Source: Escherichia coli
Lineage (GTDB): Bacteria > Pseudomonadota > Gammaproteobacteria > Enterobacterales > Enterobacteriaceae
DNA: 64,000 nucleotides
Direction: 5' to 3' (one strand)
Assembly (NCBI RefSeq): GCF_030013595.1
Contig: NZ_CP122768.1
The first letter of the stretch is position 1. Each line of letters starts with the position of its first letter. This document shows, piece by piece, positions 14,318 through 27,291 of the stretch. The position numbers were made by a program, and so were the translations under genes. Below the pieces are notes generated by a model that saw only the letters and a program-made list of their open reading frames with translations, searched no databases and was not told where the DNA came from.

Positions 14318-15010
14318 CTAGTGATAACCACGCGCGGTCATAAAATCCGTAATCGCTTTTTCCGCATCAACCAGCACTTGTTCCAGCGGTTGATTGGCAT
14401 CGATATCAACCAGTTGCGCGCCTCCAAAGGTTAACTGTGGCGTTATGGCTATCTTCCTTTCCAGCGATTCTCTTTTGTGGTCAGGCTTACGCGCGCAGGC
14501 CACGTCCAGATCGACATTGAGTTTGATGACCAGATCGGGCTTATGGCTCGCCATCCAGTGAAACGCTTTACGTTCCTGGCTTGCCAGCCATGAGACAAAA
14601 CGACCACCTTCAACGTTAGGTGGGAACACCGTACCATCGTAAGCACCAGGAATTTGGTCCTGAGGATAACGGTCGGTTAGAACAATTAACCCGCGACGAC
14701 GACAGGCAAGCATATGACGAAAGCGCAGTAAGCGACGGGCGACAAACGCTGTAATTACCAGCGCCGGAACAGGGCCAGGCAATTTTTTTGCTGTTTTCAC
14801 CTGATTTCGTTCAATTGTTTTATGTAAGGATTTTCCCATCAACGGTAATTTTGTCACTGCACGACCGACATTTCCGGCCTGTTTTCCTAAATGAACTCTT
14901 TCGGCAGCACCATATTTTTCGACAACGGTAATGAGATGTTCACACACCGTTGACTTGCCTGAACCATCGCTACCAATAACGGCAATTAATGGAGGTGTTA
15001 TTGACTGCAT
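14318..15010 (-). CDS. yghT: P-loop NTPase/kinase-like protein
   Basis: 230 aa; Walker [11 protein letters not shown] at N-terminus and a DRY-type motif; paralog of the two following ORFs. Confidence 0.75.
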
Positions 15011-15183
15011 GAATATATCCTTTAATTTAAATATCCATTAAAAATATTTATTTGGTTAATATGTTTTTATGAAAGCGTAATTCAGGTCAATGTCACAATT
15101 AACCATTGTCACAATAAGGTTGAACGGATATTCTGAGCACGGACCACGTAATATTCAATACATTATTTGCTGCCGGGTTTTTC

Positions 15184-15897
15184 GTGAATCAACGTAATAT
15201 GTCAATAATTAATTCCACGCCAGTGCGTGTTATTGCCATTGTAGGATGTGATGGTTCAGGTAAATCGACCCTCACGGCAAGCCTGGTAAATGAACTGGCA
15301 GCAACAATGCCAACAGAACACATTTATCTCGGGCAATCGTCCGGGCGAATTGGCGAATGGATTTCACAGCTCCCTGTTATTGGCGCACCTTTTGGGCGTT
15401 ATTTGCGAAGTAAAGCGGCACATGTGCACGAAAAGCCCTTAACACCGCCTGGCAATATTACTGCGCTGGTTATCTATCTGCTTTCCTGCTGGCGGGCGTA
15501 CAAGTTTCGCAAAATGTTGTGTAAAAGCCAGCAAGGCTATCTGCTCATCACCGACCGCTACCCGCAGGTTGAAGTGCCGGGTTTTCGCTTTGATGGCCCG
15601 CAATTGGCAAAAACCACGGGCGGTAACGGTTGGATAAAAATGTTAAGGCAGCGCGAGCTGAAGCTGTACCAATGGATGGCGTCTTATTTGCCCGTATTGT
15701 TGATTCGTCTTGGCATTGATGAACAAACCGCGTTTGCGCGTAAACCTGACCACCAACTGGCAGCGTTACAGGAAAAAATCGCCGTTACGCCGCAACTGAC
15801 ATTCAATGGCGCAAAGATCCTTGAACTGGATGGTCGGCAACCAGCCGATGAAATTATGCAAGCGTCACTACGCGCAATTCACGCCGCGCTTTCCTGA
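15184..15897 (+). CDS. yghS: P-loop NTPase/kinase-like protein
   Basis: 237 aa; Walker A VGCDGSGKST; ITDRYPQ motif. Confidence 0.75.
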   Translation: MNQRNMSIINSTPVRVIAIVGCDGSGKSTLTASLVNELAATMPTEHIYLGQSSGRIGEWISQLPVIGAPFGRYLRSKAAHVHEKPLTPPGNITALVIYLLSCWRAYKFRKMLCKSQQGYLLITDRYPQVEVPGFRFDGPQLAKTTGGNGWIKMLRQRELKLYQWMASYLPVLLIRLGIDEQTAFARKPDHQLAALQEKIAVTPQLTFNGAKILELDGRQPADEIMQASLRAIHAALS

Positions 15898-15928
15898 TCA
15901 CCAAAATGGATAGGGGATGATTTAACGA

Positions 15929-16687
15929 ATGGATGCACTACAAACACAAACTGTTAATAGTACAACCGCGCCGCAGCCCAACTACATTCCGGGGCTGATT
16001 GCGGTGGTCGGGTGTGATGGCACCGGTAAATCCACGCTGACCACCGACCTGGTGAAATCGCTGCAACAACACTGGCAAACCGAGCGGCGCTATCTGGGGC
16101 TGCTCTCCGGCGAAGACGGCGACAAAATCAAACGATTGCCGTTGGTTGGCGTCTGGCTGGAACGGCGACTGGCGGCCAAATCCTCGAAAACCCAAAGCAT
16201 GAAAACCAAATCTCCGGCGCTATGGGCGGCGGTGATTATGTACTGCTTTTCGCTGCGAAGAATGGCGAATCTACGCAAGGTTCAGCGACTGGCGCAAAGT
16301 GGCGTTCTGGTGGTCAGCGATCGCTTCCCGCAGGCTGAAATTTCGGGCTTTTATTATGACGGACCGGGGATTGGCGTCGAACGTGCGACCGGGAAAATCA
16401 GCATGTTTCTGGCGCAGCGCGAACGGCGTTTATACCAACAAATGGCGCAATATCGCCCGGAATTAATTATTCGCCTGGGCATTGATATTGAGACTGCCAT
16501 CTCCCGCAAGCCTGACCATGACTATGCCGAGCTGCAGGACAAAATCGGCGTCATGTCGACGATTGGCTATAACGGCACAAAAATTCTTGAGATTGATTCC
16601 AGAGCGCCCTACAGCGAAGTGCTGGAACAGGCACAGAAGGCGGTTTCTCTGGTTGCCATCGTTTCTGACCGCCGAAGTTTAACTTAA
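15929..16687 (+). CDS. yghR: P-loop NTPase/kinase-like protein
   Basis: 252 aa; Walker A VGCDGTGKST; VSDRFPQ motif. Confidence 0.75.
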   Translation: MDALQTQTVNSTTAPQPNYIPGLIAVVGCDGTGKSTLTTDLVKSLQQHWQTERRYLGLLSGEDGDKIKRLPLVGVWLERRLAAKSSKTQSMKTKSPALWAAVIMYCFSLRRMANLRKVQRLAQSGVLVVSDRFPQAEISGFYYDGPGIGVERATGKISMFLAQRERRLYQQMAQYRPELIIRLGIDIETAISRKPDHDYAELQDKIGVMSTIGYNGTKILEIDSRAPYSEVLEQAQKAVSLVAIVSDRRSLT

Positions 16688-16732: not shown

Positions 16733-18082
16733 TTGGCGGGTCTTAACATCAAACATTGGTTTGCAGATGGCGCGTTTCGCACCATTATTCGCAATAGCGC
16801 CTGGTTAGGCTCCAGTAATGTCGTGAGCGCCTTGCTGGGTCTGTTGGCGCTCTCGTGTGCCGGTAAAGGGATGACGCCCGCCATGTTTGGCGTACTGGTG
16901 ATTGTGCAATCGTACGCCAAGTCGATCAGCGATTTTATTAAGTTTCAGACATGGCAGTTGGTGGTGCAGTACGGAACGCCAGCCTTGACCAACAATAATC
17001 CGCAGCAATTTCGCAATGTCGTCTCATTTTCCTTCTCGCTGGATATCGTCAGCGGCGCGGTGGCGATTGTCGGCGGCATTGCCTTACTGCCATTCCTTTC
17101 CCATTCATTAGGTCTGGATGACCAAAGCTTTTGGCTGGCGGCGCTGTATTGCACGCTCATTCCTTCAATGGCTTCCTCCACGCCGACCGGCATTCTGCGT
17201 GCGGTAGATCGCTTCGATCTAATTGCTGTACAGCAGGCGACGAAACCTTTTCTGCGCGCAGCGGGGAGCGTCGTAGCTTGGTATTTTGACTTTGGTTTTG
17301 CGGGTTTTGTTATTGCCTGGTACGTGTCGAATCTGGTTGGCGGCACCATGTACTGGTGGTTTGCCGCGCGCGAATTACGCCGCAGAAATATCCATAACGC
17401 GTTCAAATTGAATCTGTTTGAGTCTGCCCGACACATTAAAGGCGCGTGGAGTTTTGTCTGGTCAACCAACATTGCCCACTCCATCTGGTCGGCACGTAAC
17501 TCGTGCAGCACAGTGTTGGTGGGGATCGTGTTAGGACCCGCTGCCGCCGGGTTATTTAAAATCGCCATGACATTCTTCGACGCCGCCGGAACGCCAGCGG
17601 GTTTACTGGGTAAAAGTTTTTACCCAGAGGTGATGCGTTTAGATCCGCGCACCACCAGACCGTGGTTGTTAGGCGTGAAGTCCGGTTTACTGGCGGGCGG
17701 AATCGGTATTCTGGTGGCGCTCGCGGTGTTGATCGTCGGCAAGCCGCTCATTTCGCTGGTGTTTGGCGTTAAGTATCTCGAAGCGTATGACCTGATTCAG
17801 GTGATGCTGGGCGCAATTGTGATCTCGATGCTGGGCTTCCCACAGGAGTCATTGCTATTGATGGCGGGAAAACAGCGCGCTTTTCTCGTGGCGCAAACCA
17901 TCGCCTCAATCGGCTACATCGTATTGCTGTTCATGTTCTGTCATCTGTTTGGCGTGCTGGGGGCTGCATTTGCTTACTTCGGTGGGCAATGTCTGGATGT
18001 GGTGTTCTCGCTAATTCCGACCTTAAAGGCATTTTTTCAGCGCCATTCCTTGCTTTATAACGCAGCCGGAGAGAAATCCTGA
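16733..18082 (+). CDS. yghQ: Multi-span inner membrane protein, MOP/Wzx-like flippase family (start uncertain)
   Basis: 449-aa hydrophobic ORF; stop TGA overlaps the next ATG (ATGATG at 18079-18084); synteny with yghQ. Confidence 0.7.
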   Translation: MAGLNIKHWFADGAFRTIIRNSAWLGSSNVVSALLGLLALSCAGKGMTPAMFGVLVIVQSYAKSISDFIKFQTWQLVVQYGTPALTNNNPQQFRNVVSFSFSLDIVSGAVAIVGGIALLPFLSHSLGLDDQSFWLAALYCTLIPSMASSTPTGILRAVDRFDLIAVQQATKPFLRAAGSVVAWYFDFGFAGFVIAWYVSNLVGGTMYWWFAARELRRRNIHNAFKLNLFESARHIKGAWSFVWSTNIAHSIWSARNSCSTVLVGIVLGPAAAGLFKIAMTFFDAAGTPAGLLGKSFYPEVMRLDPRTTRPWLLGVKSGLLAGGIGILVALAVLIVGKPLISLVFGVKYLEAYDLIQVMLGAIVISMLGFPQESLLLMAGKQRAFLVAQTIASIGYIVLLFMFCHLFGVLGAAFAYFGGQCLDVVFSLIPTLKAFFQRHSLLYNAAGEKS

Positions 18083-18918
18083 TGATGAGAAAATATTTCC
18101 CGCTTGAGGCGAGCGAGCGTCTATTTGTTGCGATTGAAGAAGATGATGTCGTTGATGCACAGGTCAGTTTGCCGCCGACTATCGCACTAAGTTGTACCAC
18201 CGAAATCATCCATGATAATTACGCGTTATGCCTGAAATTCTGGCTGGATGGTGTTAATCGTCAGGAGCTACTGCGTTTAATCCGCAAACAGGCGAAAGGC
18301 GATGAGCTGACGACAGACGAGCGCAAAAAGTATAAATACATGCGAGCGCGCTACAAGCATCTGCGCTTTGCGCAACGGCTGTATTTAAAGAAGCATCAGG
18401 CCGGATTTTTATTCGGCAAAACGACCGTTTTTTTGGGGCGTTTTCAGGACGGCTTTCGTAACGGTAAGAAAAATATTGTGTCGTATTACGGCAACCTGTT
18501 ACGGGTTTATTTAAGCTCTCCGGTCTGGTCGTTGGTGAACTATTCATTACGCCATAGCCAGTTAGAAAGCGTAAGCGGTTTTATTGCCTATCGGCAAAAG
18601 CAAATGCATACCCTGAAAGAGATAATTGCCAAACCGCGACTAACTGGCAGGGAATTTCATGATGTGCGAAAAATCATCAGCCAGCAGGTTTCTTATTACG
18701 ACACCCTAAGATCGCTTGATCCTGAAAATAAAGAGGCGTTACAGATTTCCCGCTTCCTCGCCGCCATTAATGGCCTGATGGGGGATAAACACGACGACAT
18801 GGTGGCGGATGATATGGAAAACCGCCAGTCGTATGATGCACCGATGGCGCTGGATAGCGATATTCGTCAGCGCTTAGAACTGCTGATTTCGCGTTTCCCA
18901 CTATATCCGGAGCAATAA
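18082..18918 (+). CDS. Hypothetical cytoplasmic protein (278 aa), translationally coupled to yghQ
   Basis: Long ORF with start overlapping the yghQ stop and stop overlapping the next start (TAATG); basic and charged, no signal peptide seen. Confidence 0.55.
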   Translation: MMRKYFPLEASERLFVAIEEDDVVDAQVSLPPTIALSCTTEIIHDNYALCLKFWLDGVNRQELLRLIRKQAKGDELTTDERKKYKYMRARYKHLRFAQRLYLKKHQAGFLFGKTTVFLGRFQDGFRNGKKNIVSYYGNLLRVYLSSPVWSLVNYSLRHSQLESVSGFIAYRQKQMHTLKEIIAKPRLTGREFHDVRKIISQQVSYYDTLRSLDPENKEALQISRFLAAINGLMGDKHDDMVADDMENRQSYDAPMALDSDIRQRLELLISRFPLYPEQ

Positions 18919-19478
18919 TGCCATCTCGTTGGATTTTCGCTCTGATCATCGCACTCTTAGCGCCAGGCGCGGCGGCACACAATTTCGTCACTGGCAAAAC
19001 GGTTACCCCTGTTTATATCCAGGAAGGTGGTGAGCTGCTTCTGAATAGCGATGACGAAATTCACTACCAAAAGTGGAACAGCACACAATTGGCGGGAAAA
19101 GTCCGCATTATTCAGTATATCGCCGGGCGTAAGTCGGCGAAGAAAAAGAACTCACTGTTAATTAAAGCGGTTGAAGCGGCAAACTTTCCACAGGATCGTT
19201 TTCAGCCCACCACCATTGTGAACACCGATGATGCCATCTTTGGTACTGGCTATTTTGTCGTTGGCAAAATCGAAAAAAATAAACGCCGCTATCCGTGGGC
19301 GCAATTCGTTATTGACGGCAATGGACAGGGACGTGTTGCTTGGCGGTTGCCGGAGCAGAGTTCAACCATTCTGGTGCTGAATAAAGCCGGGCAAATTCAG
19401 TGGGCAAAGGACGGCAGCCTGACGCCGGAAGAGGTAGATCATGTCATTGCGCTGGCGCAGAAGCTGATCAATGAATAA
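18918..19478 (+). CDS. Hypothetical secreted/periplasmic protein (186 aa)
   Basis: N-terminal signal peptide MPSRWIFALIIALLAPGAAAHNF (AxA cleavage-type site, no lipobox Cys). Confidence 0.55.
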   Translation: MPSRWIFALIIALLAPGAAAHNFVTGKTVTPVYIQEGGELLLNSDDEIHYQKWNSTQLAGKVRIIQYIAGRKSAKKKNSLLIKAVEAANFPQDRFQPTTIVNTDDAIFGTGYFVVGKIEKNKRRYPWAQFVIDGNGQGRVAWRLPEQSSTILVLNKAGQIQWAKDGSLTPEEVDHVIALAQKLINE

Positions 19479-19508
19479 AAAACTCAAAGGATTGAGGGCA
19501 TTAGTGGG

Positions 19509-20579
19509 ATGAAGCTGGTTGAACACTACATCATGCGTGGTACGCGCCGTCTGGTGCTGATTATCGTCGGTTTTCTGATCTTTATTTTCGCCAGCTACTC
19601 CGCACAGCGTTATCTGACCGAAGCGGCAAATGGGACATTAGCTCTTGATGTTGTGCTGGATATTGTTTTCTACAAGGTGCTGATTGCACTGGAGATGTTG
19701 TTACCTGTTGGACTGTATGTGTCAGTTGGCGTGACGCTAGGGCAGATGTATACCGACTCGGAAATTACCGCTATTTCTGCGGCGGGGGGGAGTCCGGGAC
19801 GCTTGTACAAAGCCGTTCTTTATCTGGCGATACCGCTAAGTATTTTTGTCACCCTTCTGTCGATGTATGGTCGGCCGTGGGCTTATGCGCAGATTTATCA
19901 ACTGGAGCAACAGTCGCAGTCGGAGCTGGATGTTCGCCAGTTGCGGGCAAAGAAATTTAACACTAACGATAACGGACGAATGATCCTTTCGCAGACGGTT
20001 GATCAGGATAATAATCGCCTGACTGACGTGCTGATTTATACTTCTACTGCCAATCGAACCCGTATTTTCCGCGCCCGTTCGGTTGATGTGGTTGACCCAT
20101 CACCCGAGAAACCGACCGTTATGTTGCACAACGGCACTGCCTATCTTCTCGATCATCAGGGGCGTGACGACAACGAACAGATCTACCGTCATCTGCAATT
20201 ACATCTGAATCCGCTGGATCAAAGCCCTAACGTCAAACGCAAAGCGAAATCGGTCACGGAGCTGGCGCGCTCCGTCTTTCCAGCCGATCATGCCGAACTG
20301 CAATGGCGACAAAGCCGTGGCCTGACAGCATTGTTGATGGCGCTGCTGGCCATTTCATTAAGTCGGGTAAAACCGCGGCAAGGGCGATTTTCAACATTAT
20401 TGCCACTGACGTTGCTGTTTATTGCCATTTTTTATGGCGGCGACGTCTGCCGTACGCTGGTGGCTAACGGCGCGATTCCCCTCATTCCTGGTTTGTGGTT
20501 AGTACCCGGACTCATGCTAATGGGCCTGCTGATGCTGGTCGCACGCGACTTCTCTTTGCTGCAGAAATTTTCCCGATGA
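19509..20579 (+). CDS. LptF-like permease (YjgP/YjgQ family) paralog
   Basis: 356 aa; membrane topology and YTDSEITAISAAG segment resemble the LptF/LptG family. Confidence 0.7.
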   Translation: MKLVEHYIMRGTRRLVLIIVGFLIFIFASYSAQRYLTEAANGTLALDVVLDIVFYKVLIALEMLLPVGLYVSVGVTLGQMYTDSEITAISAAGGSPGRLYKAVLYLAIPLSIFVTLLSMYGRPWAYAQIYQLEQQSQSELDVRQLRAKKFNTNDNGRMILSQTVDQDNNRLTDVLIYTSTANRTRIFRARSVDVVDPSPEKPTVMLHNGTAYLLDHQGRDDNEQIYRHLQLHLNPLDQSPNVKRKAKSVTELARSVFPADHAELQWRQSRGLTALLMALLAISLSRVKPRQGRFSTLLPLTLLFIAIFYGGDVCRTLVANGAIPLIPGLWLVPGLMLMGLLMLVARDFSLLQKFSR

Positions 20580-21655
20580 ATGTTTTCAGTCGCTATTTAA
20601 TCCGTCATCTCTTTCTCGGTTTTGCCGCCGCCGCAGGGCTATTGCTGCCGCTTTTTACCACCTTCAACCTGATTAACGAACTGGATGATGTCAGCCCGGG
20701 TGGTTATCGCTGGACTCAGGCGGTGCTGGTGGTGCTGATGACCTTACCGCGCACACTGGTCGAACTTTCGCCGTTTATCGCATTATTGGGAGGGATTGTT
20801 GGCCTGGGGCAGTTATCGAAAAACAGTGAGCTTACCGCCATTCGCAGCACGGGGTTTTCTATCTTCCGTATTGCACTAGTGGCGCTGGTTGCCGGGATAT
20901 TTTGGACTGTTTCGTTAGGCGCGATAGATGAGTGGGTGGCGTCGCCATTGCAGCAACAGGCGCTGCAAATCAAATCGACTGCCACCGCGTTGGGGGAGGA
21001 CGATGACATTACCGGCAATATGCTTTGGGCCAGGCGCGGTAATGAATTTGTGACGGTGAAATCGCTGAACGAGCAGGGCCAGCCTGTGGGCGTGGAGATA
21101 TTTCATTATCGCGACGATCTCTCGCTCGAATCCTACATTTTTGCACGCAGTGCCTCCATTGAAGACGACAAAACGTGGATCCTGCATGGTGTGAATCATA
21201 AAAAATGGTTGAATGGCAAAGAAACGCTGGAAACATCAGATAATCTTGCCTGGCAATCGGCCTTCACCAGTATGAATCTTGAAGAGTTATCGATGCCGGG
21301 AAATACTTTTTCTGTCCGTCAACTTAATCATTACATCCATTATTTGCAGGAAACTGGGCAACCCAGCAGCGAATACCGCCTTGCACTGTGGGAAAAACTG
21401 GGACAACCCATCCTGACTCTGGCGATGATTTTGCTGGCTGTGCCGTTTACCTTTAGTGCCCCGCGTTCGCCTGGGATGGGTAGCCGTCTCGCTGTAGGCG
21501 TCATCGTGGGCTTACTTACCTGGATCAGCTATCAAATCATGGTCAATCTGGGATTGCTATTTGCGTTGAGCGCACCTGTTACCGCGCTCGGTTTACCGGT
21601 AGCGTTTGTGCTGGTGGCGTTGAGCCTGGTGTATTGGTATGACAGACAACATTAA
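20576..21655 (+). CDS. LptG-like permease (YjgP/YjgQ family) paralog
   Basis: Start ATG 20576 overlapping upstream stop (ATGA); 359 aa; N-terminal MNVFSRYLIRHLF typical of LptF/G permeases. Confidence 0.7.
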   Translation: MNVFSRYLIRHLFLGFAAAAGLLLPLFTTFNLINELDDVSPGGYRWTQAVLVVLMTLPRTLVELSPFIALLGGIVGLGQLSKNSELTAIRSTGFSIFRIALVALVAGIFWTVSLGAIDEWVASPLQQQALQIKSTATALGEDDDITGNMLWARRGNEFVTVKSLNEQGQPVGVEIFHYRDDLSLESYIFARSASIEDDKTWILHGVNHKKWLNGKETLETSDNLAWQSAFTSMNLEELSMPGNTFSVRQLNHYIHYLQETGQPSSEYRLALWEKLGQPILTLAMILLAVPFTFSAPRSPGMGSRLAVGVIVGLLTWISYQIMVNLGLLFALSAPVTALGLPVAFVLVALSLVYWYDRQH

Positions 21656-21656
21656 A

Positions 21657-21683
21657 CCCGCCGTGGCGCAACACCACAGCGGG
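21657..21683. terminator. Hairpin between convergent operons (possible bidirectional terminator)
   Basis: cccgccgtgg ... ccacagcggg near-perfect inverted repeat in the 34-nt gap between the LptG-like stop and the oxoamine synthase stop. Confidence 0.4.
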
Positions 21684-21689
21684 CTCACA

Positions 21690-22862
21690 TTACTGCTTCA
21701 GAGTAGCGAACGCTTGAATGATGGCATCAATTTGCTCACGACTGTGGGCAGCGTTTACGCTACAGCGCAGCAGCGTGATGCCTGCAGGCGCGGCAGGTGG
21801 CAGGATAAGATTCACATAAACGCCCAGCGAAATAAGCTCGCGCCAGATGCGTAAACCTTCCTCTTTCGAACCGATTATTACTGGCACTACCGGGCTAATA
21901 TGTGAACTTAACTCATAACCCAGTTTTTGCAGACCGTCATACAGATGGTTGGCATTATCCATCAGCTTTTGCCGCAACTCTGGTTGTGTAGCAATGGTTC
22001 TTAACGACGAGCGCACGGTCGCAATGCAGGACGGAGAAGGAGAGGCGGTAAAAATATACGGGCGGCTGCCGTAGCGCAGCACTTCCATCGCTTCCGAACC
22101 GACAGCAAAACCGCCAATCGAGGCCAGACTTTTACTGAAAGTACCAACGATAATATCCACATCATCTTCAACGCCAACGGCTTCAGCCAGTCCGCGCCCC
22201 GTTGCGCCTAACACGCCAAACGAATGCGCTTCATCGACAATCAAATAACCACCGAGACGACGTTTGATATCAACAATTTCCGCCAGCGGCGCAACGTCAC
22301 CGAGCATACTGTAGATGCCTTCAACGATGATAATCGCCTCTTTTGCCCGTTCACCGAGGCGAACCATGCGCCGTTCCAGATCTTTAGCATCGTTATGGCG
22401 GAAACGAATAATTTCCGCGCCACCGAGAGAACAGGCGTCATAAATACTGGCGTGGCTGTCGGCATCCAGTAACACCACGGCGTTATGGTCGGCAAGTGCG
22501 CTGATGACGCCTAAATTAGCGGTATAACCGGTTGAAAAAACGATAGCGGTAGGGCGATTAAAAAACTCGGCGATCTCTTTCTCTAACGCCAGATGCGGCG
22601 CATAACTGCCGTTTGCCATACGAGAACCGGTGGTGCCGGTGCCTTGGGCCGCTAACGCTGCCTGACCTTCGGCGATGGCATCATGATTAAAGGTTAAACC
22701 GAGATAATTATTGGTCCCGGCCAGAATCACTTTTTTATTGCCGATCCGACCTTCGGTGGCGGAATACACTTCATCAATACAGGTGCCAAACGGTGTTAAC
22801 CCGTTGTCACTAAATTGCAGTCGCTCGCCAGCAAGGCGCGCATATTTATCGTATAGCCCCAT
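21690..22862 (-). CDS. PLP-dependent alpha-oxoamine synthase, serine palmitoyltransferase-like
   Basis: 390 aa; class I/II aminotransferase fold; DEAHSFG and GTFSKSL (PLP-lysine) motifs. Confidence 0.8.
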   Translation of the reverse strand: MGLYDKYARLAGERLQFSDNGLTPFGTCIDEVYSATEGRIGNKKVILAGTNNYLGLTFNHDAIAEGQAALAAQGTGTTGSRMANGSYAPHLALEKEIAEFFNRPTAIVFSTGYTANLGVISALADHNAVVLLDADSHASIYDACSLGGAEIIRFRHNDAKDLERRMVRLGERAKEAIIIVEGIYSMLGDVAPLAEIVDIKRRLGGYLIVDEAHSFGVLGATGRGLAEAVGVEDDVDIIVGTFSKSLASIGGFAVGSEAMEVLRYGSRPYIFTASPSPSCIATVRSSLRTIATQPELRQKLMDNANHLYDGLQKLGYELSSHISPVVPVIIGSKEEGLRIWRELISLGVYVNLILPPAAPAGITLLRCSVNAAHSREQIDAIIQAFATLKQ

Positions 22863-23110
22863 TATTTATTCTCCAGCCATGGAAGTAGTGTTTCCATTAA
22901 TTGCGCAGGGGTTTTGACATCCAGCAGAATATTAATAGGAATGGAAATATCGAATCTGTCTTCCAGCATCATTAAGAGATCCATCACTTTGATCGACTCC
23001 AGGCCAAGATCGTTGACGAGATCGCTGTCGGACTTAATTTCCACACCGTTTTCGACCAAATCCTGTAAACAGGAAAGGATGTAATCCATTACTATTTCAC
23101 GATTTACCAT
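22862..23110 (-). CDS. Acyl carrier protein
   Basis: 82 aa, acidic, with DLGLESIKVMDL phosphopantetheine-attachment-type serine motif. Confidence 0.75.
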   Translation of the reverse strand: MVNREIVMDYILSCLQDLVENGVEIKSDSDLVNDLGLESIKVMDLLMMLEDRFDISIPINILLDVKTPAQLMETLLPWLENK

Positions 23111-23141
23111 AGAAACGTTAACACACCTTTAAACAAGACAA

Positions 23142-24056
23142 TCAAAATAGCCCGTTGCGTAATGCGTGTTCCAGGCTAATCCCGGGAAACCAATTAATAT
23201 CTTCAGAAATACGGTTATTACTTGCCGACCAGTCGGCATGAGTTAATTCACGGATTTTCGAACGAGTCAGCATCGGTTCTTTACCCGCCAGACGGCTCAA
23301 CGCGGTACTGATATCCGCAAGGCAGGTGAGTAGCGGCAGAGGAATACCGACCATCCGCACGGAACCACAGCGGACATCGGCAATAAGCTGTTGGACACGT
23401 TGCCAGTCATAGCCTCCGGCGACGCCATCGCATAATTCATAGGTTTGCGTCTGTACAGTTTCGGCGCTTAACCACTGCCCCACGGCTTGCGCGAAATCGG
23501 TGACGTGCAGGAAAGAGAGCTGTGTATCTGGCGCACCAAGTCGTGGCAGTAGGCCGCGCAGCATCCAGTCAAACAGCGGTTTTAACTCTTTATCGCCGGG
23601 ACCATACACGGCTGTCGGGCGAAAAATGCCCAGCGTAATTTCGTCAGCCATTGCGGTCAGTCGTTGTTCGGCGACGTGTTTGGAATTTGCGTACCAGGAG
23701 AGTTCGGGATGGCGCGCCGCCAGCGAAGAGATAAACAGAAAACGTTGGCAAAAGCCGCTCTCTTTTGCCGCTTGCATCAGTCGCAGGCTGCCGTCAACGT
23801 TACAGCGGGTAAAAATCTCTTCTTTGTGCCCGCGCACTTGCCCGGCGCAATGGACCACCGCGCTGGCTCCGGCAACCAGTTCGCTAAGTGAATGAGTATC
23901 TTCCAGAGAACCGCGCACCCAGATGAGATTGTCATTGACGTGAGCGCGGGCAGTACGCGTCAATGCGCGAACGTGAAAGCCGCGGGCGAGCAGGTTATCG
24001 ATAATATATTTACCGATAAACCCGGTAGCGCCCGTCACCGCGACAGTTTGATTCAT
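23142..24056 (-). CDS. NAD(P)-dependent epimerase/dehydratase-family reductase
   Basis: 304 aa; N-terminal Rossmann motif VTGATGFIGKYI. Confidence 0.75.
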   Translation of the reverse strand: MNQTVAVTGATGFIGKYIIDNLLARGFHVRALTRTARAHVNDNLIWVRGSLEDTHSLSELVAGASAVVHCAGQVRGHKEEIFTRCNVDGSLRLMQAAKESGFCQRFLFISSLAARHPELSWYANSKHVAEQRLTAMADEITLGIFRPTAVYGPGDKELKPLFDWMLRGLLPRLGAPDTQLSFLHVTDFAQAVGQWLSAETVQTQTYELCDGVAGGYDWQRVQQLIADVRCGSVRMVGIPLPLLTCLADISTALSRLAGKEPMLTRSKIRELTHADWSASNNRISEDINWFPGISLEHALRNGLF

Positions 24057-25804
24057 GCCAGGGATTCCTGCACATGAAGGCTTGCAGCATAAGCCTTCTG
24101 ATAACGTTTTTTCGCTTCCGCACGGGCAGGCTTGCCGGAGGACGTTCGGGGAATACTGTGGGGCGGCAACAGATCGATAGCCGCGGTCACGCCAAATTCG
24201 CTTTGGATCGGTGCTGCCAGCGCGTGGATAAGCTGCCCGCGACGTTCTTCATCGCTGATCCGACACTGGATCTGCAAAATGATTTTTTCCTGGGCGGTAA
24301 CAAAAGCAATCGCATCGCCAGAATGAATTTCCGGTTCCTGTTCCGCAATATATTCAATATCCTGCGGCCAGATATTACGGCCACGAATAATAATCAGATC
24401 TTTAATGCGCCCGGTGACATACAGATAACCGTCCAGCAGATAACCGAGGTCGCCGGTGTCTAACCAGCCCGTCGCGGCAATCTCGTCTTGTGAAATCTGG
24501 TCGCCAAAGTAACCGCTCATCAGGCTAGGGCCGGAGATGCAAATATGGCCTACCACACGTTCCGCGACAGGTATACCTGCTTCATTGCGGATTTCAATGC
24601 CATGTTCTGGCAACGCTTTACCGCAGTTGACGAAAGTCGATACGGCGCGTGTTTCAGCACCCGGCGCGACGGCTTTGCCCTGATATTCAAGGATGTCGCG
24701 ATCCACTTCGTTAACCACAACCCCGGAGGCTTCATCAGAGAAGCTGACAGCCAGCGCATTTTCTGCCAGTCCGTAGCACGGCATGAACGTTTTATCGTCA
24801 AAGTTAACCTGACGGAAACATTCAGCGAATTGATGGAGTTGTTCTGCGGAGATCGGCTCAGCACCAATACCAGCGACGCGCCAGCAGGATAGATCCAGTT
24901 CAGCGAGATCTTTTTCATTCACGCGGCGCTGGCACAATTCATAGCCAAACGGCGGCGCAACGGAAACGGTGCCGCGATTTTTACTGATCAATTTAAGCCA
25001 TTGCAGAGGACGCATGGCAAAATCCTGAGTGCGCAAATAATCTACTGAGAGCTGCGTGGCGACGGGGGTCAGGAGAAAGCCGACCAGTCCCATATCATGG
25101 TAGAAAGGCAGCCAGGAGACGCAGCGGTCGCCAGGGCGTAATTTAATGCCATCGTGGCTTATAGCACGTAGATTAGCCATCACTTCGCGATGGGTGATAA
25201 TGACGCCACGGGGAAAACGGGTGCTGCCGGAGGTGTACTGGAGGTAGGCGATATCGTTCGGAACTGGATGCTGGAGTGCAACATCGGCTTCCGGTAATGC
25301 CTTAAACCAGGCGTGGCTTAAAACATGTAATTCGGGGTTGTTGTTATGCGTCGCGGCATTGACCAGCGGTAACCACTCATCACCAGTGATAATGGCTGCG
25401 GGCTGGCAACTTGTCAGTAAACCCTGCAGTTTGGCGCTCCAGGAATCCCGCTGACCGACGCCCATTGGAATCGCCAACGGGACGGCGACTAAGCCGGCAT
25501 ACTGGCAGGAAAAAAAAGCCTCTACGAACCCGCTACTGGTTTCGGCAATCAGCGCCACGCGATCGCCTTTTTTCAGGTTCAGCGATAACAATCGCTTCGC
25601 ACCAGCTTCGGCACGCGCTTTTAACGTCTGATATTCCAGTTGATCTTCAAGTTGGCAACGTCTGTCATAAAAATTCATTCCGGCGCTACTCAGAGCGGCG
25701 TAGTCCAAAGCATCAACCAGCGTTGGAAAATCGGCATAGCGCATAGGTAGGGAATGCGTAAAGATTTTATTAGACATATACACCACGAAAAAATTGGATA
25801 TCAA
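24053..25804 (-). CDS. Fatty acyl-AMP ligase / acyl-ACP synthetase (AMP-binding family)
   Basis: 583 aa; AMP-binding motif YLQYTSGSTRFPRGV; start may be at a downstream Met. Confidence 0.8.
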   Translation of the reverse strand: MISNFFVVYMSNKIFTHSLPMRYADFPTLVDALDYAALSSAGMNFYDRRCQLEDQLEYQTLKARAEAGAKRLLSLNLKKGDRVALIAETSSGFVEAFFSCQYAGLVAVPLAIPMGVGQRDSWSAKLQGLLTSCQPAAIITGDEWLPLVNAATHNNNPELHVLSHAWFKALPEADVALQHPVPNDIAYLQYTSGSTRFPRGVIITHREVMANLRAISHDGIKLRPGDRCVSWLPFYHDMGLVGFLLTPVATQLSVDYLRTQDFAMRPLQWLKLISKNRGTVSVAPPFGYELCQRRVNEKDLAELDLSCWRVAGIGAEPISAEQLHQFAECFRQVNFDDKTFMPCYGLAENALAVSFSDEASGVVVNEVDRDILEYQGKAVAPGAETRAVSTFVNCGKALPEHGIEIRNEAGIPVAERVVGHICISGPSLMSGYFGDQISQDEIAATGWLDTGDLGYLLDGYLYVTGRIKDLIIIRGRNIWPQDIEYIAEQEPEIHSGDAIAFVTAQEKIILQIQCRISDEERRGQLIHALAAPIQSEFGVTAAIDLLPPHSIPRTSSGKPARAEAKKRYQKAYAASLHVQESLA

Positions 25805-26148
25805 AAATAAAATGACAATAATGCGGTGGATTATATAGGCATAAAAGATAAATGAGATAGTATTTTCATTAGTGTGAAAATGAACATTGATTTAAATAAT
25901 GAGTTTGAGTTTTTTTGTTTTTATTGTGAATGATATTTAATTTATGAATGTATTAAGAAGAAGCCTTGTCCGGTCGCCTTAAATCGACAAAAGGCATTGT
26001 GGCGCTTCTGTGTAGTCTCTGACCTTATCGTAATCATTAATAAATGCTATTTATTCGTCGTTTGTATTCATTGGGTTGATTATTAAGGTGCCGTTCGTTG
26101 CTGTTGCAACCTGTTTGTCACCGTTAATTATTTGTTACCCACAGAACT
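25805..26148. promoter_or_regulatory. AT-rich divergent promoter region between the lipid operon and yghO
   Basis: About 340 nt of strongly AT-rich non-coding DNA between divergent gene starts. Confidence 0.4.
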
Positions 26149-27291
26149 ATGGAATGCGATCTGCTGATGATTAAAATTGAAAAAGTAATTAATAAAAATG
26201 ACCTTAAGGCATTTATCGCTTTTCCGTCATCACTTTATCCCGACGATCCAAACTGGATACCCCCTTTATTCATTGAACGCAACGAGCATTTGTCTGCGAA
26301 AAATCCGGGGACGGACCATATCATCTGGCAGGCGTGGGTGGCAAAAAAAGCGGGGCAGATAGTCGGGCGTATTACCGCGCAAATAGATACCTTGCACCGC
26401 GAGCGTTACGGCAAAGATACCGGTCATTTCGGCATGATTGACGCCATTGATGATCCGCAGGTTTTTGCCGCGTTGTTTGGCGCAGCGGAAGCGTGGTTGA
26501 AGTCACAAGGTGCAAGTAAGATCAGCGGGCCTTTCAGCCTGAATATCAATCAGGAAAGCGGATTACTGATTGAAGGTTTTGACACACCACCCTGTGCGAT
26601 GATGCCACACGGCAAACCGTGGTATGCCGCGCATATTGAACAACTGGGTTATCACAAAGGCATTGATTTACTGGCGTGGTGGATGCAGCGAACCGATCTC
26701 ACGTTCTCTCCGGCGCTAAAAAAACTGATGGATCAGGTGCGCAAAAAGGTGACCATTCGCTGCATCAATCGCCAGCGGTTTGCCGAAGAGATGCAGATCC
26801 TGCGTGAGATTTTCAACTCCGGCTGGCAGCACAACTGGGGATTTGTGCCGTTTACCGAACATGAATTCGCGACCATGGGCGATCAACTTAAATATCTGGT
26901 GCCGGACGATATGATCTACATCGCTGAGATTGATTCTGCACCCTGCGCGTTTATTGTCGGCTTGCCAAACATCAACGAGGCGATTGCCGATCTGAACGGA
27001 TCGCTCTTTCCCTTCGGCTGGGCAAAATTGCTGTGGCGTTTAAAAGTCAGCGGTGTGCGAACTGCGCGAGTACCGCTGATGGGCGTGCGGGACGAGTATC
27101 TGTTTAGCCGCATCGGCCCGGTGATTGCGCTGTTATTGATTGAAGCCTTACGCGATCCGTTTGCCCGCCGGAAGATCGATGCGCTGGAGATGTCATGGAT
27201 CCTCGAAACCAATACAGGCATGAATAACATGCTGGAACGCATTGGGGCGGAGCCGTACAAGCGTTACCGATTGTATGAAAAGCAGATTTGA
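26149..27291 (+). CDS. yghO: Acetyltransferase-fold (GNAT-like) protein; putative N-acyltransferase (intact here)
   Basis: 380-aa ORF at the yghO position next to glcC; fold assignment from reading the translation, not searched. Confidence 0.6.
   Translation: MECDLLMIKIEKVINKNDLKAFIAFPSSLYPDDPNWIPPLFIERNEHLSAKNPGTDHIIWQAWVAKKAGQIVGRITAQIDTLHRERYGKDTGHFGMIDAIDDPQVFAALFGAAEAWLKSQGASKISGPFSLNINQESGLLIEGFDTPPCAMMPHGKPWYAAHIEQLGYHKGIDLLAWWMQRTDLTFSPALKKLMDQVRKKVTIRCINRQRFAEEMQILREIFNSGWQHNWGFVPFTEHEFATMGDQLKYLVPDDMIYIAEIDSAPCAFIVGLPNINEAIADLNGSLFPFGWAKLLWRLKVSGVRTARVPLMGVRDEYLFSRIGPVIALLLIEALRDPFARRKIDALEMSWILETNTGMNNMLERIGAEPYKRYRLYEKQI

What the first reader, a model, noticed from the sequence alone, without database searches (positions are those of the whole stretch)
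16733..21655. Paralogous LptF/LptG-like permease pair, translationally coupled to a flippase-like protein and two unknown proteins, with no cognate ABC ATPase
yghQ, a 278-aa unknown, a 186-aa signal-peptide protein and the LptF-like and LptG-like permeases are chained by overlapping stop/start codons (ATGATG at 18079-18084, TAATG at 18916-18920, ATGA at 20576-20579). The permeases are a second copy of the LPS-extracting LptFG fold, but no LptB-like ABC ATPase is encoded nearby. The operon converges on the lipid synthesis operon across a 34-nt hairpin-containing gap. This suggests a dedicated envelope export route for the putative aminolipid, possibly borrowing LptB or another ATPase.
Basis: partly seen in the sequence, partly recalled or inferred. 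Interest (0 to 1): 0.7.

Follow-up and report, generated by a model that had tools for sequence, protein, structure and literature searches.

The report
Second LptFG pair for sphingolipid export
Most E. coli strains, though not K-12, carry a second copy of the membrane pump that extracts lipopolysaccharide, sitting beside genes that make sphingolipid; it probably exports that lipid using the cell's ordinary LptB motor, as a 2026 preprint showed for Caulobacter.

Summary
The window is the E. coli yghT–glcC region. yghQ, a 278-aa ORF, a 186-aa secreted ORF, lptF2 and lptG2 form one chain with 1-, 1- and 4-nt overlaps. A 34-nt gap with a hairpin separates them from spt-acpR-cerR-aasR. One quoted coordinate is off by 3 nt.

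The permeases are a second copy:
- Housekeeping lptFG is in 5425 of 5426 complete E. coli genomes; this locus is in about 4100.
- No ABC ATPase lies anywhere in the 64 kb.
- In 42 of 45 related genome loci (Enterobacterales, Pseudomonas, Azotobacter), spt lies within 10 kb. The other three are cut by contig ends.

Both coupling-helix glutamates are invariant. LptG's LPS-phosphate contacts K34, K40 and K41 are N/D, D/E and D. This fits an LptB-driven extractor for a lipid other than LPS.

LptF2/LptG2 were proposed in 2024 and shown in an April 2026 preprint to bind LptB in Caulobacter; that preprint draws the E. coli UTI89 locus.

New here:
- The 278-aa protein has a CHAD-like fold.
- The 186-aa protein is a cysteine-free thioredoxin-fold YtfJ relative, not LptC-like.
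- Three thymidylate-kinase-like P-loop genes (yghRST) travel with the locus.

Nothing has been tested in E. coli.

The parts
16733..18082 (+). yghQ: MOP/Wzx-type flippase-like membrane protein, 449 aa, intact here and truncated in K-12
   Evidence: Pfam Polysacc_synt PF01943 E 1.1e-8 and PF13440 E 9.6e-8. NCBIfam MOP flippase E 2e-8, far below the cut-off. K-12 carries a pseudogene next to IS5. It belongs to the same InterPro family (IPR002797) as Caulobacter CC_1166, a proposed sphingolipid flippase.
18082..18918 (+). 278-aa basic cytoplasmic protein with a CHAD-like all-helical fold and no Pfam family
18918..19478 (+). 186-aa secreted YtfJ-family protein with a cysteine-free thioredoxin-like fold
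19509..20579 (+). lptF2: second LptF-type permease, 356 aa
   Evidence: TIGR04407 321.6 bits against a cut-off of 230. 30% identical to K-12 LptF by BLASTP and 24% over the full MAFFT alignment. Full-length matches to solved LptF chains. The coupling-helix Glu85 is invariant in 47 of 47 relatives.
20576..21655 (+). lptG2: second LptG-type permease, 359 aa from ATG 20576
   Evidence: TIGR04408 304.1 bits against a cut-off of 240. 28% identical to K-12 LptG over the full length. Matches solved LptG chains. Glu85 is invariant in 44 of 44 relatives. LptG K34, K40, K41 and R133 are replaced by N31, D37, D38 and L130.
21657..21683 (.). GC-rich hairpin in the 34-nt gap between the convergent operons; a likely terminator for the spt operon and possibly for both
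   Evidence: Fold -15.7 kcal/mol, z -3.1. Terminator-like site on the minus strand only.
21690..25777 (-). spt-acpR-cerR-aasR: the sphingoid base and ceramide synthesis operon (21690-22862, 22862-23110, 23142-24056, 24053-25777)
   Evidence: NCBIfam serine palmitoyltransferase 600 bits against a cut-off of 500; fatty acyl-AMP ligase 868 bits. RefSeq annotation. Spt, AcpR and AasR were tested biochemically in E. coli BL21(DE3) (PMC9386255).
26149..27291 (+). yghO: homologue of the bacterial ceramide synthase (N-acyltransferase)
   Evidence: Assigned as the counterpart of CC_1154 in PMC9386255. Found with the locus in nearly all relatives. No Pfam or NCBIfam hit.
14318..16687 (.). yghT (-), yghS (+) and yghR (+): three paralogous P-loop proteins, weakly thymidylate-kinase-like, that travel with the locus. 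yghS-yghR may open the same transcription unit as yghQ.
   Evidence: Walker A and DR[YF]PQ motifs, no ABC signature. Weak dTMP-kinase matches. Only generic P-loop hits in Pfam. They co-occur with lptF2G2 even in rearranged loci, and homologues at 36-44% identity occur in Pseudomonas loci.

Best explanation
The region is the transport arm of the E. coli sphingolipid locus.

Proposed mechanism:
1. Spt, AcpR, AasR, YghO and CerR make (dihydro)ceramide at the inner membrane.
2. The lipid may then be modified; the only candidate head-group enzymes in the locus are the kinase-like YghR, YghS and YghT.
3. YghQ, a MOP-family flippase, moves the lipid to the periplasmic leaflet.
4. LptF2 and LptG2 form the membrane part of an LptB2FG-type extractor. 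Having no ATPase gene of their own, they dock through their conserved coupling helices onto the housekeeping LptB dimer.
5. The lipid is pushed into their periplasmic domains and probably onward over the ordinary LptC/LptA/LptDE bridge to the outer membrane.

Shown here: gene anatomy, family membership, second-copy status, absence of an ATPase gene, tight co-occurrence with spt, purifying selection, conserved coupling helices and an altered substrate pocket.

Shown elsewhere, in Caulobacter only: F2-G2 complex formation, binding to LptB, and lethality of deletion only when anionic sphingolipid is made.

Inferred for E. coli: the substrate, the use of LptB, the flippase role of YghQ, and any role of the CHAD-like and YtfJ-like proteins.
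For: Family and copy number
- Both permeases pass the LptF and LptG equivalog cut-offs and align end to end with solved LptF/LptG chains.
- They are a second copy: 5425 of 5426 genomes carry housekeeping lptFG, while about 4105 of 5426 carry this pair.

No dedicated Lpt partner
- No ABC ATPase is annotated or detectable in the 64 kb.
- No LptA, LptB or LptC homologue occurs in any of 63 related loci. The only ABC hits near the cluster are MsbA-like fused exporters in Pseudomonas-type loci; a few Enterobacterales loci have unrelated flanking ABC hits about 9 kb away.

Co-occurrence with spt genes
- 42 of 45 genome loci with LptF2 at least 50% identical have them within 10 kb; 3 are truncated.
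- Metagenomic relatives at 37-55% identity also sit in spt clusters.
- Within E. coli the counts are 4105, 4067 and 4056.

Residue-level evidence
- The coupling-helix region is 14/29 (F) and 11/29 (G) identical to LptF and LptG, against 24% and 28% overall. The glutamates equivalent to LptF E84 and LptG E88 are invariant.
- The LPS-phosphate contacts of LptG TM1 are charge-reversed across the clade (K34 to N/D, K40 to D/E, K41 to D, R133 to L). K34E is lethal in LptG.

Selection and published work
- dN/dS is 0.03-0.15 for every gene of the locus.
- Pseudomonas-type loci have an MsbA-like exporter where Enterobacterales have YghQ. Caulobacter has a same-family flippase candidate.
Against: - No experiment exists for E. 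coli.
- BL21(DE3), which carries the locus, made no detectable 3-oxo-sphinganine without overexpression (PMC9386255). The locus may be silent in laboratory culture.
- A member of the E. coli clade (A. vinelandii Avin_44330) is only 24% identical (E 1e-6) to Caulobacter LptF2. Transferring the Caulobacter result therefore rests on analogy, and the two pairs may have arisen independently.
- I could not model or test binding to LptB.
- The locus has no LptC2.
- The periplasmic protein it does encode is not an Lpt-fold protein.
- The final lipid is unknown.
Confidence: 0.62

Rival explanations
1. LptF2G2 is an alternative or back-up extractor for LPS or another glycolipid (for example a modified lipid A form), and its position next to spt is incidental.
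For: Both proteins pass the curated LptF and LptG equivalog thresholds, and RefSeq names them lptF and lptG. Some cationic pocket residues are kept: LptF R33 and K317, LptG K62 and R136.
Against: Linkage to spt genes holds over Enterobacterales, Pseudomonas, Azotobacter and more distant MAGs despite extensive rearrangement. LptG K34, K40 and K41 are replaced by N/D, D/E and D, and K34E is lethal for LPS transport. K-12 lacks the pair yet makes a normal envelope (the envelope point is established knowledge).
Confidence: 0.08
2. LptF2G2 is powered not by LptB but by a locus-encoded or other NTPase, for example the co-travelling P-loop proteins YghR, YghS and YghT (230-252 aa, similar in size to LptB).
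For: YghRST homologues accompany lptF2G2 in most Enterobacterales loci, and lie immediately beside lptG2 in Rahnella, Erwinia and Pantoea variants. Homologues at 36-44% identity occur in Pseudomonas loci. They have a Walker A motif. Pfam gives only generic P-loop hits.
Against: They have no ABC signature motif, and their ABC matches are confined to the Walker A stretch. Their longer matches are to thymidylate kinases, with the DR[YF] motif. Several Pseudomonas and Azotobacter loci lack them within 10 kb. The coupling-helix glutamates that contact LptB are invariant. Caulobacter F2/G2 bind LptB.
Confidence: 0.08
3. In E. coli the locus is a cryptic or decaying remnant: present in genomes but not used, so the permease pair has no current role.
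For: The locus is lost from about 24% of complete genomes, including K-12, where IS5 flanks the deletion. Truncated and fused gene products occur in some E. coli and Shigella assemblies. BL21(DE3) extracts showed no native SPT activity.
Against: All genes are intact in more than 4000 genomes at 95-99% identity. dN/dS is 0.03-0.15 against other Escherichia species, Pseudocitrobacter and Citrobacter. The overlapping start and stop codons are conserved.
Confidence: 0.12

Closest known systems
Caulobacter crescentus LptF2/LptG2 (CCNA_01214/CCNA_01213), the sphingolipid-locus paralogues of LptFG (Olea-Ozuna et al. 2024, PMC11324152; Uchendu, Isom and Klein 2026 preprint, 10.64898/2026.04.12.717747)
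   Same: A second LptF/LptG pair inside the sphingolipid synthesis locus. No lptB paralogue. A same-family (Polysacc_synt/MOP) flippase candidate nearby. The same five ceramide genes. The preprint's Figure 2B shows the E. coli UTI89 locus alongside.
   Different: No LptC2 in E. coli. No CPG head-group genes (ceramide kinase and others); instead yghRST, a CHAD-like protein and a YtfJ-like protein. Sequence relatedness is low: 24% between CC_1156 and a member of the E. coli clade. No experiments in E. coli.
E. coli LptB2FGC, the housekeeping LPS extractor (PDB 6MHU, 6MI7; PMC6744409)
   Same: The same two families. End-to-end alignment. Three TM segments, then a hydrophilic insert of about 170 residues, then a C-terminal hydrophobic region, by crude hydropathy. 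Conserved coupling-helix glutamates.
   Different: 24-30% identity. Not essential and not universal. Not linked to pepA. LptG TM1 lysines that bind lipid A phosphates are replaced by acidic or neutral residues. Encoded beside spt rather than alone.
Pseudomonas/Azotobacter-type sphingolipid clusters (A. vinelandii Avin_44240-44370; P. luteola), predicted to make ceramide phosphoglycerate
   Same: LptF2 and LptG2 are 50-61% and 47-58% identical to the E. coli proteins and form one clade with them (96% bootstrap). The ceramide genes are the same.
   Different: These clusters carry an MsbA-like ABC exporter, NTP_transf_3, DAGK_cat kinase and Asp/Arg hydroxylase genes. They lack yghQ, the CHAD-like protein and the YtfJ-like protein.
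CHAD domains (PF05235; PDB 6QV5, 3E0S, 6RN5), polyphosphate-binding helical domains
   Different: No sequence-level match to the Pfam CHAD model. Foldseek was not significant. No CYTH or polyphosphate-kinase partner was recognised. Ligand unknown.

Membership tests
LptF/LptG permease family (Pfam PF03739; NCBIfam TIGR04407, TIGR04408) | Profile score above the curated cut-off, with LptF-type and LptG-type distinguished | tested here: met
   LptF2 321.6 bits against 230; LptG2 304.1 against 240. Each scores far lower on the other model. K-12 LptF and LptG score 385 and 456.
LptF/LptG permease family (Pfam PF03739; NCBIfam TIGR04407, TIGR04408) | Six-TM architecture with a large periplasmic domain between TM3 and TM4 | tested here: inconclusive
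   Crude hydropathy gives three N-terminal TM segments, a hydrophilic insert of about 170 residues and a C-terminal hydrophobic region whose segments overlap, so the count is not clean. Alignments to solved LptF and LptG chains are full-length. The fold itself was not modelled here.
LptF/LptG permease family (Pfam PF03739; NCBIfam TIGR04407, TIGR04408) | Coupling-helix glutamate that contacts LptB (LptF E84, LptG E88) | tested here: met
   E85 in both proteins, invariant in 47 of 47 and 44 of 44 relatives. The coupling-helix region is 48% and 38% identical, against 24% and 28% overall.
Housekeeping LPS extractor LptB2FG | Cationic residues of LptG TM1 that bind lipid A phosphates and inner core (K34, K40, K41, R133) | tested here: not met
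   N31, D37, D38 and L130 in LptG2; N/D, D/E, D and mostly L across the clade. Residue roles are taken from PMC6744409.
Housekeeping LPS extractor LptB2FG | Universal, single, essential copy beside pepA | tested here: not met
   That copy exists elsewhere in 5425 of 5426 genomes. The window's pair is absent from about 24% of genomes, including K-12.
Sphingolipid-locus LptF2/LptG2 (as defined in Caulobacter) | Second lptFG pair encoded within or beside the spt/acpR/cerR/aasR/cerS cluster | tested here: met
   A 34-nt gap separates it from spt in the window. 42 of 45 related genome loci have the cluster within 10 kb.
Sphingolipid-locus LptF2/LptG2 (as defined in Caulobacter) | No dedicated ATPase; forms a complex with the single LptB | not testable with these tools
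   The absence of an ATPase gene was tested and met. Physical association with LptB needs pull-downs or multimer modelling.
Sphingolipid-locus LptF2/LptG2 (as defined in Caulobacter) | Deletion tolerated only when (anionic) sphingolipid synthesis is abolished | not testable with these tools
   This is a genetic experiment; it was shown only in Caulobacter.
Sphingolipid-locus LptF2/LptG2 (as defined in Caulobacter) | Common descent with Caulobacter LptF2/LptG2 rather than an independent duplication | tested here: inconclusive
   No Caulobacter sequence could be fetched. A published comparison gives 24% identity, E 1e-6, between CC_1156 and Avin_44330. My NJ tree separates the sampled LptF2-like proteins (spt context shown for only some of the distant ones) from the PepA-linked LptFs with only 61% support.
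MOP (Wzx/MurJ-type) flippases | Match to Polysacc_synt profiles; multi-span membrane protein | tested here: met
   PF01943 E 1.1e-8 and PF13440 E 9.6e-8. At least 9 hydrophobic segments. No NCBIfam equivalog cut-off is reached.
CHAD domain (PF05235) | Sequence match to the family profile | tested here: not met
   No Pfam hit with E <= 0.001.
CHAD domain (PF05235) | Two-lobed helical-bundle fold with conserved His and basic residues | tested here: met
YtfJ_HI0045 family (TIGR01626, PF09695) | Profile score above the cut-off; secreted protein of about 185 aa | tested here: met
   211.5 bits against 151.1. Signal-like N-terminus.
LptC/LptA (OstA) periplasmic bridge proteins | Beta-jellyroll OstA fold, or sequence similarity to LptC or LptA | tested here: not met
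ABC-transporter ATPases (candidates: YghR, YghS, YghT) | Walker A plus the ABC signature (LSGGQ) and a full ABC_tran profile match | tested here: not met
   Walker A only, with no signature motif. The best ABC_tran E-value is 0.011. The longer matches are to thymidylate kinases.

The most novel reading that the evidence does not exclude
Enterobacterales may have built their own version of the sphingolipid pathway. In this reading the product is not the Caulobacter-type ceramide phosphoglycerate but a different, perhaps phosphorylated, sphingolipid. Its head group would be made or handled by the three thymidylate-kinase-like P-loop proteins and the CHAD-like polyanion-binding protein. YghQ would flip it and LptB2-F2G2 would extract it. 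The cysteine-free thioredoxin-fold YtfJ-like protein would be a new kind of periplasmic partner, standing in for the missing LptC2. The gammaproteobacterial LptF2G2 pair might also have arisen independently of the alphaproteobacterial one.
Probability: 0.25. Interest if true: 0.65.

Novelty: new member of a known kind. Interest (0 to 1): 0.38.

Why it matters
About three quarters of complete E. coli genomes, though not the K-12 laboratory strain, encode both sphingolipid synthesis and a second LptFG extractor. RefSeq labels both pairs lptF and lptG, which hides this.

If the pair shares LptB with the LPS machine, two outer-membrane lipid routes compete for one essential ATPase. That matters for envelope homeostasis and for drugs aimed at LptB2FG.

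E. coli would also be a far more tractable system than Caulobacter for asking how bacterial sphingolipids are flipped, extracted and carried across the periplasm. The locus offers three untested candidates for the missing steps: YghQ, the CHAD-like protein and the YtfJ-like protein.

The central idea, however, is already in the literature.

Tried and rejected
1. YghR/S/T as the missing ABC ATPase: rejected. They have no signature motif, their ABC hits cover only the Walker A stretch, and their longer hits are thymidylate-kinase-like.

2. The 186-aa secreted protein as an LptC2 or LptA analogue: rejected on fold, which is thioredoxin-like. It also has no similarity to LptC or LptA.

4. The promoter scan found no more sites than shuffled sequence (14 against 16.3 expected), so operon boundaries stay inferred.

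5. Several distant LptF relatives lay on contigs too short to judge context (L008, L009, L012).

The single-origin question is left open; the NJ tree is weakly supported at depth.

7. Literature searches for yghQ, yghS, yghT and yghO found no functional study of the E. coli transport genes.

Full report
**What the window is.** The 10 kb around the finding matches E. coli chromosomes. One record (NZ_CM149870.1) is 100% identical, and 4056 of 5426 complete genomes hold at least 80% of it. RefSeq annotation of that record gives this gene order: pitB, yghT(-), yghS, yghR, yghQ, a hypothetical protein, a YtfJ-family protein, 'lptF', 'lptG', then on the other strand spt, an acyl carrier protein, an NAD-dependent epimerase/dehydratase and a fatty acyl-AMP ligase, then yghO and glcC. 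In K-12 the stretch from mid-yghQ to yghO is missing and an IS5 sits at the junction.

**Checking the observation.**
- yghQ's TGA (18080-18082) shares one base with the next ATG (18082-18084).
- TAATG at 18916-18920 and ATGA at 20576-20579 are exact.
- The 186-aa ORF and lptF2 are 30 nt apart, in the same frame.
- The gap to spt is 34 nt and holds a hairpin of -15.7 kcal/mol (z = -3.1). The hairpin counts as terminator-like on the minus strand only.
- The lptF2/lptG2 overlap recurs in every related locus.

**Family membership.**
- LptF2 scores 321.6 bits on the NCBIfam LptF equivalog (cut-off 230). LptG2 scores 304.1 bits on the LptG equivalog (cut-off 240). K-12 LptF and LptG score 385 and 456.
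- Identity to K-12 LptF and LptG is 30% and 28% by BLASTP. Identity of the two window proteins to each other is negligible. So this is a copy of the whole F/G pair, not a fresh duplication of one gene.
- Both align over their full length with solved LptF and LptG chains.

**Second copy, and no ATPase.** The pepA-linked lptFG of K-12 is found in 5425 of 5426 genomes. The window's pair is found in 4105. No ABC ATPase is annotated anywhere in the 64 kb. tblastn with E. coli LptB, LptA and LptC finds nothing in the window.

**Does the pair track the lipid genes?**
- Within E. coli, lptF2G2 (4105 genomes), spt-aasR (4067) and the whole block (4056) are nearly coextensive.
- A scan of one genome per species returned 56 loci. 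I searched each with the window's proteins. Of 45 loci with LptF2 at least 50% identical (Escherichia, Pseudocitrobacter, Citrobacter, Hafnia, Shimwellia, Pluralibacter, Mangrovibacter, Sodalis, Serratia, Erwinia, Pantoea, Rahnella, Tatumella, Pseudomonas, Azotobacter), 42 have Spt, AcpR, CerR and AasR, and usually YghO, within 10 kb.
- The other three (L026, L033, L046) are cut by a contig end on the side where their relatives carry spt.
- The gene order is rearranged many times, yet the linkage persists.
- More distant relatives also sit in spt clusters: a 55% relative, a 37% relative and a 36% relative (L060).
- Relatives at 25-28% identity lie beside pepA or have no spt nearby, and are presumably housekeeping.
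- In a neighbour-joining tree the E. coli protein groups with the Pseudomonas and Azotobacter ones (96% bootstrap). All sampled LptF2-like proteins fall outside the group holding K-12 LptF and the PepA-linked proteins (61% bootstrap). Deep support is weak.

**What the residues say.**
- The glutamates corresponding to LptF E84 and LptG E88 sit in the coupling helices that engage LptB. They are invariant in 47 and 44 relatives.
- The 29-residue coupling region is 48% (F) and 38% (G) identical to the housekeeping proteins, against 24% and 28% overall.
- The LptG residues reported to bind the lipid A phosphates and inner core (K34, K40, K41, R133; PMC6744409) are N31, D37, D38 and L130 in LptG2. 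Across the clade they are N/D, D/E, D and mostly L. LptG I66 becomes D/E.
- K34E is lethal in LptG.
- LptF R33 and K317 and LptG K62 and R136 remain basic.
- Overall this looks like an LptB-compatible engine with a re-tooled substrate pocket.

**The other genes in the chain.**
- YghQ matches the Polysacc_synt (MOP flippase) profiles weakly but clearly. This is the same family as Caulobacter CC_1166, which has been proposed as the sphingolipid flippase.
- Pseudomonas-type loci lack yghQ but carry an MsbA-like exporter beside spt. That fits a flippase slot filled by different proteins.
- yghQ, the 278-aa gene and the ytfJ-like gene usually move together, including when inverted relative to lptF2G2, and they are confined to Enterobacterales. 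Three loci (L030, L032, L049) lack yghQ and the 278-aa gene, and two of those keep only the ytfJ-like gene.

**The yghRST genes.** These three paralogues have a Walker A motif, DR[YF]PQ and ARKPDH motifs, and weak thymidylate-kinase similarity. They have no ABC signature. They accompany lptF2G2 in most Enterobacterales loci, sometimes directly beside lptG2. Homologues at 36-44% identity occur in many Pseudomonas loci. They are unlikely to be the missing ATPase, but they probably belong to the pathway.

**Selection.** dN/dS against other Escherichia species, Pseudocitrobacter and Citrobacter is 0.03-0.15 for every gene from yghS to yghO. The genes are maintained.

**What is already known.**
- E. 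coli Spt, AcpR and AasR from this locus were characterised biochemically. yghO and the epimerase-like gene were assigned as ceramide synthase and reductase homologues (PMC9386255).
- Second versions of LptC, LptF and LptG, plus a flippase, were proposed to export phosphosphingolipids in Caulobacter (PMC11324152).
- An April 2026 preprint showed that Caulobacter lptF2, lptG2 and lptC2 can be deleted only when anionic sphingolipid is not made. It also showed that LptF2 and LptG2 co-purify with each other and with the single LptB. It draws the E. coli UTI89 locus in its Figure 2B (10.64898/2026.04.12.717747).
- I found no study of the E. coli transport genes.

**Caveats.**
- A. vinelandii Avin_44330 lies in the E. 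coli clade (53% identical) but is only 24% identical to Caulobacter LptF2. The two systems may not share a single origin.
- BL21(DE3) extracts without overexpression made no 3-oxo-sphinganine, so the locus may be silent in culture.
- Use of LptB, the identity of the lipid and the roles of the accessory proteins are all inferred for E. coli.

**Verdict.** The core idea, however, is already published for Caulobacter, with the E. coli locus pictured. I class the E. coli pair as a new, untested member of a known kind. It comes with an Enterobacterales-specific accessory set (MOP flippase, CHAD-like protein, Cys-less thioredoxin-fold protein, three kinase-like P-loop proteins) that has not been described.

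Noticed in passing
window 14318-16687 (yghT, yghS, yghR); L030, L032, L049, L006: Three paralogous P-loop proteins, weakly thymidylate-kinase-like, travel with the sphingolipid locus across Enterobacterales, even where gene order is scrambled. Homologues at 36-44% identity sit in Pseudomonas sphingolipid clusters. They may be lipid or head-group kinases.
   Followed up: partly
window 18082-18918: The 'unknown' 278-aa protein is predicted with high confidence to adopt a CHAD-like fold, a polyphosphate-binding domain type, despite having no sequence match to any family. Its presence between a flippase and a secreted protein is unexplained.
   Followed up: partly
window 19509-21655 and RefSeq records such as NZ_CM149870.1: RefSeq (PGAP) names this pair lptF and lptG, 'LPS export ABC transporter permease', in thousands of E. 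coli genomes that also carry the real lptFG. Those genomes therefore have two gene pairs with the same name and product.
   Followed up: yes
window 17800-26150 versus K-12 (L002 7798-8963): K-12 lacks everything from mid-yghQ to just before yghO, with an IS5 at the junction. About 24% of complete E. coli genomes lack the block.
   Followed up: partly
proteins P0003-P0006, P0011-P0020, P0106, P0152: Some E. coli and Shigella assemblies encode fusions or truncations here: YtfJ-like-LptF2 read-through products (the two ORFs are in the same frame), LptF2 joined to PitB or AMP-ligase fragments, the 278-aa protein joined to GspM, and a 238-aa LptF2 remnant in Shigella boydii. This suggests recurrent deletions and decay in some lineages.
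   Followed up: no
L006 1682-3406; L010 13532-15301; Pseudomonas and Azotobacter loci L036-L058: Pseudomonas-type sphingolipid clusters carry an MsbA-like fused ABC exporter, a DAGK_cat kinase, NTP_transf_3 and an Asp/Arg hydroxylase in place of yghQ, the CHAD-like protein and the YtfJ-like protein. One metagenomic cluster adds a sulfotransferase and glycosyltransferases.
   Followed up: partly
L056, L057, L059 (Desulfobacterota/Syntrophobacterales MAGs): LptF2-like pairs at 36-37% identity occur in deltaproteobacterial-type MAGs. One has a YghO-like (ceramide-synthase-like) gene just upstream, hinting that the association reaches beyond Proteobacteria proper.
   Followed up: no
window 21653-21687: The inter-operon hairpin qualifies as an intrinsic-terminator-like site only on the minus strand (spt operon). 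The lptG2 side has no T-run, so termination of the transport operon may rely on the same stem or on other means.
   Followed up: partly
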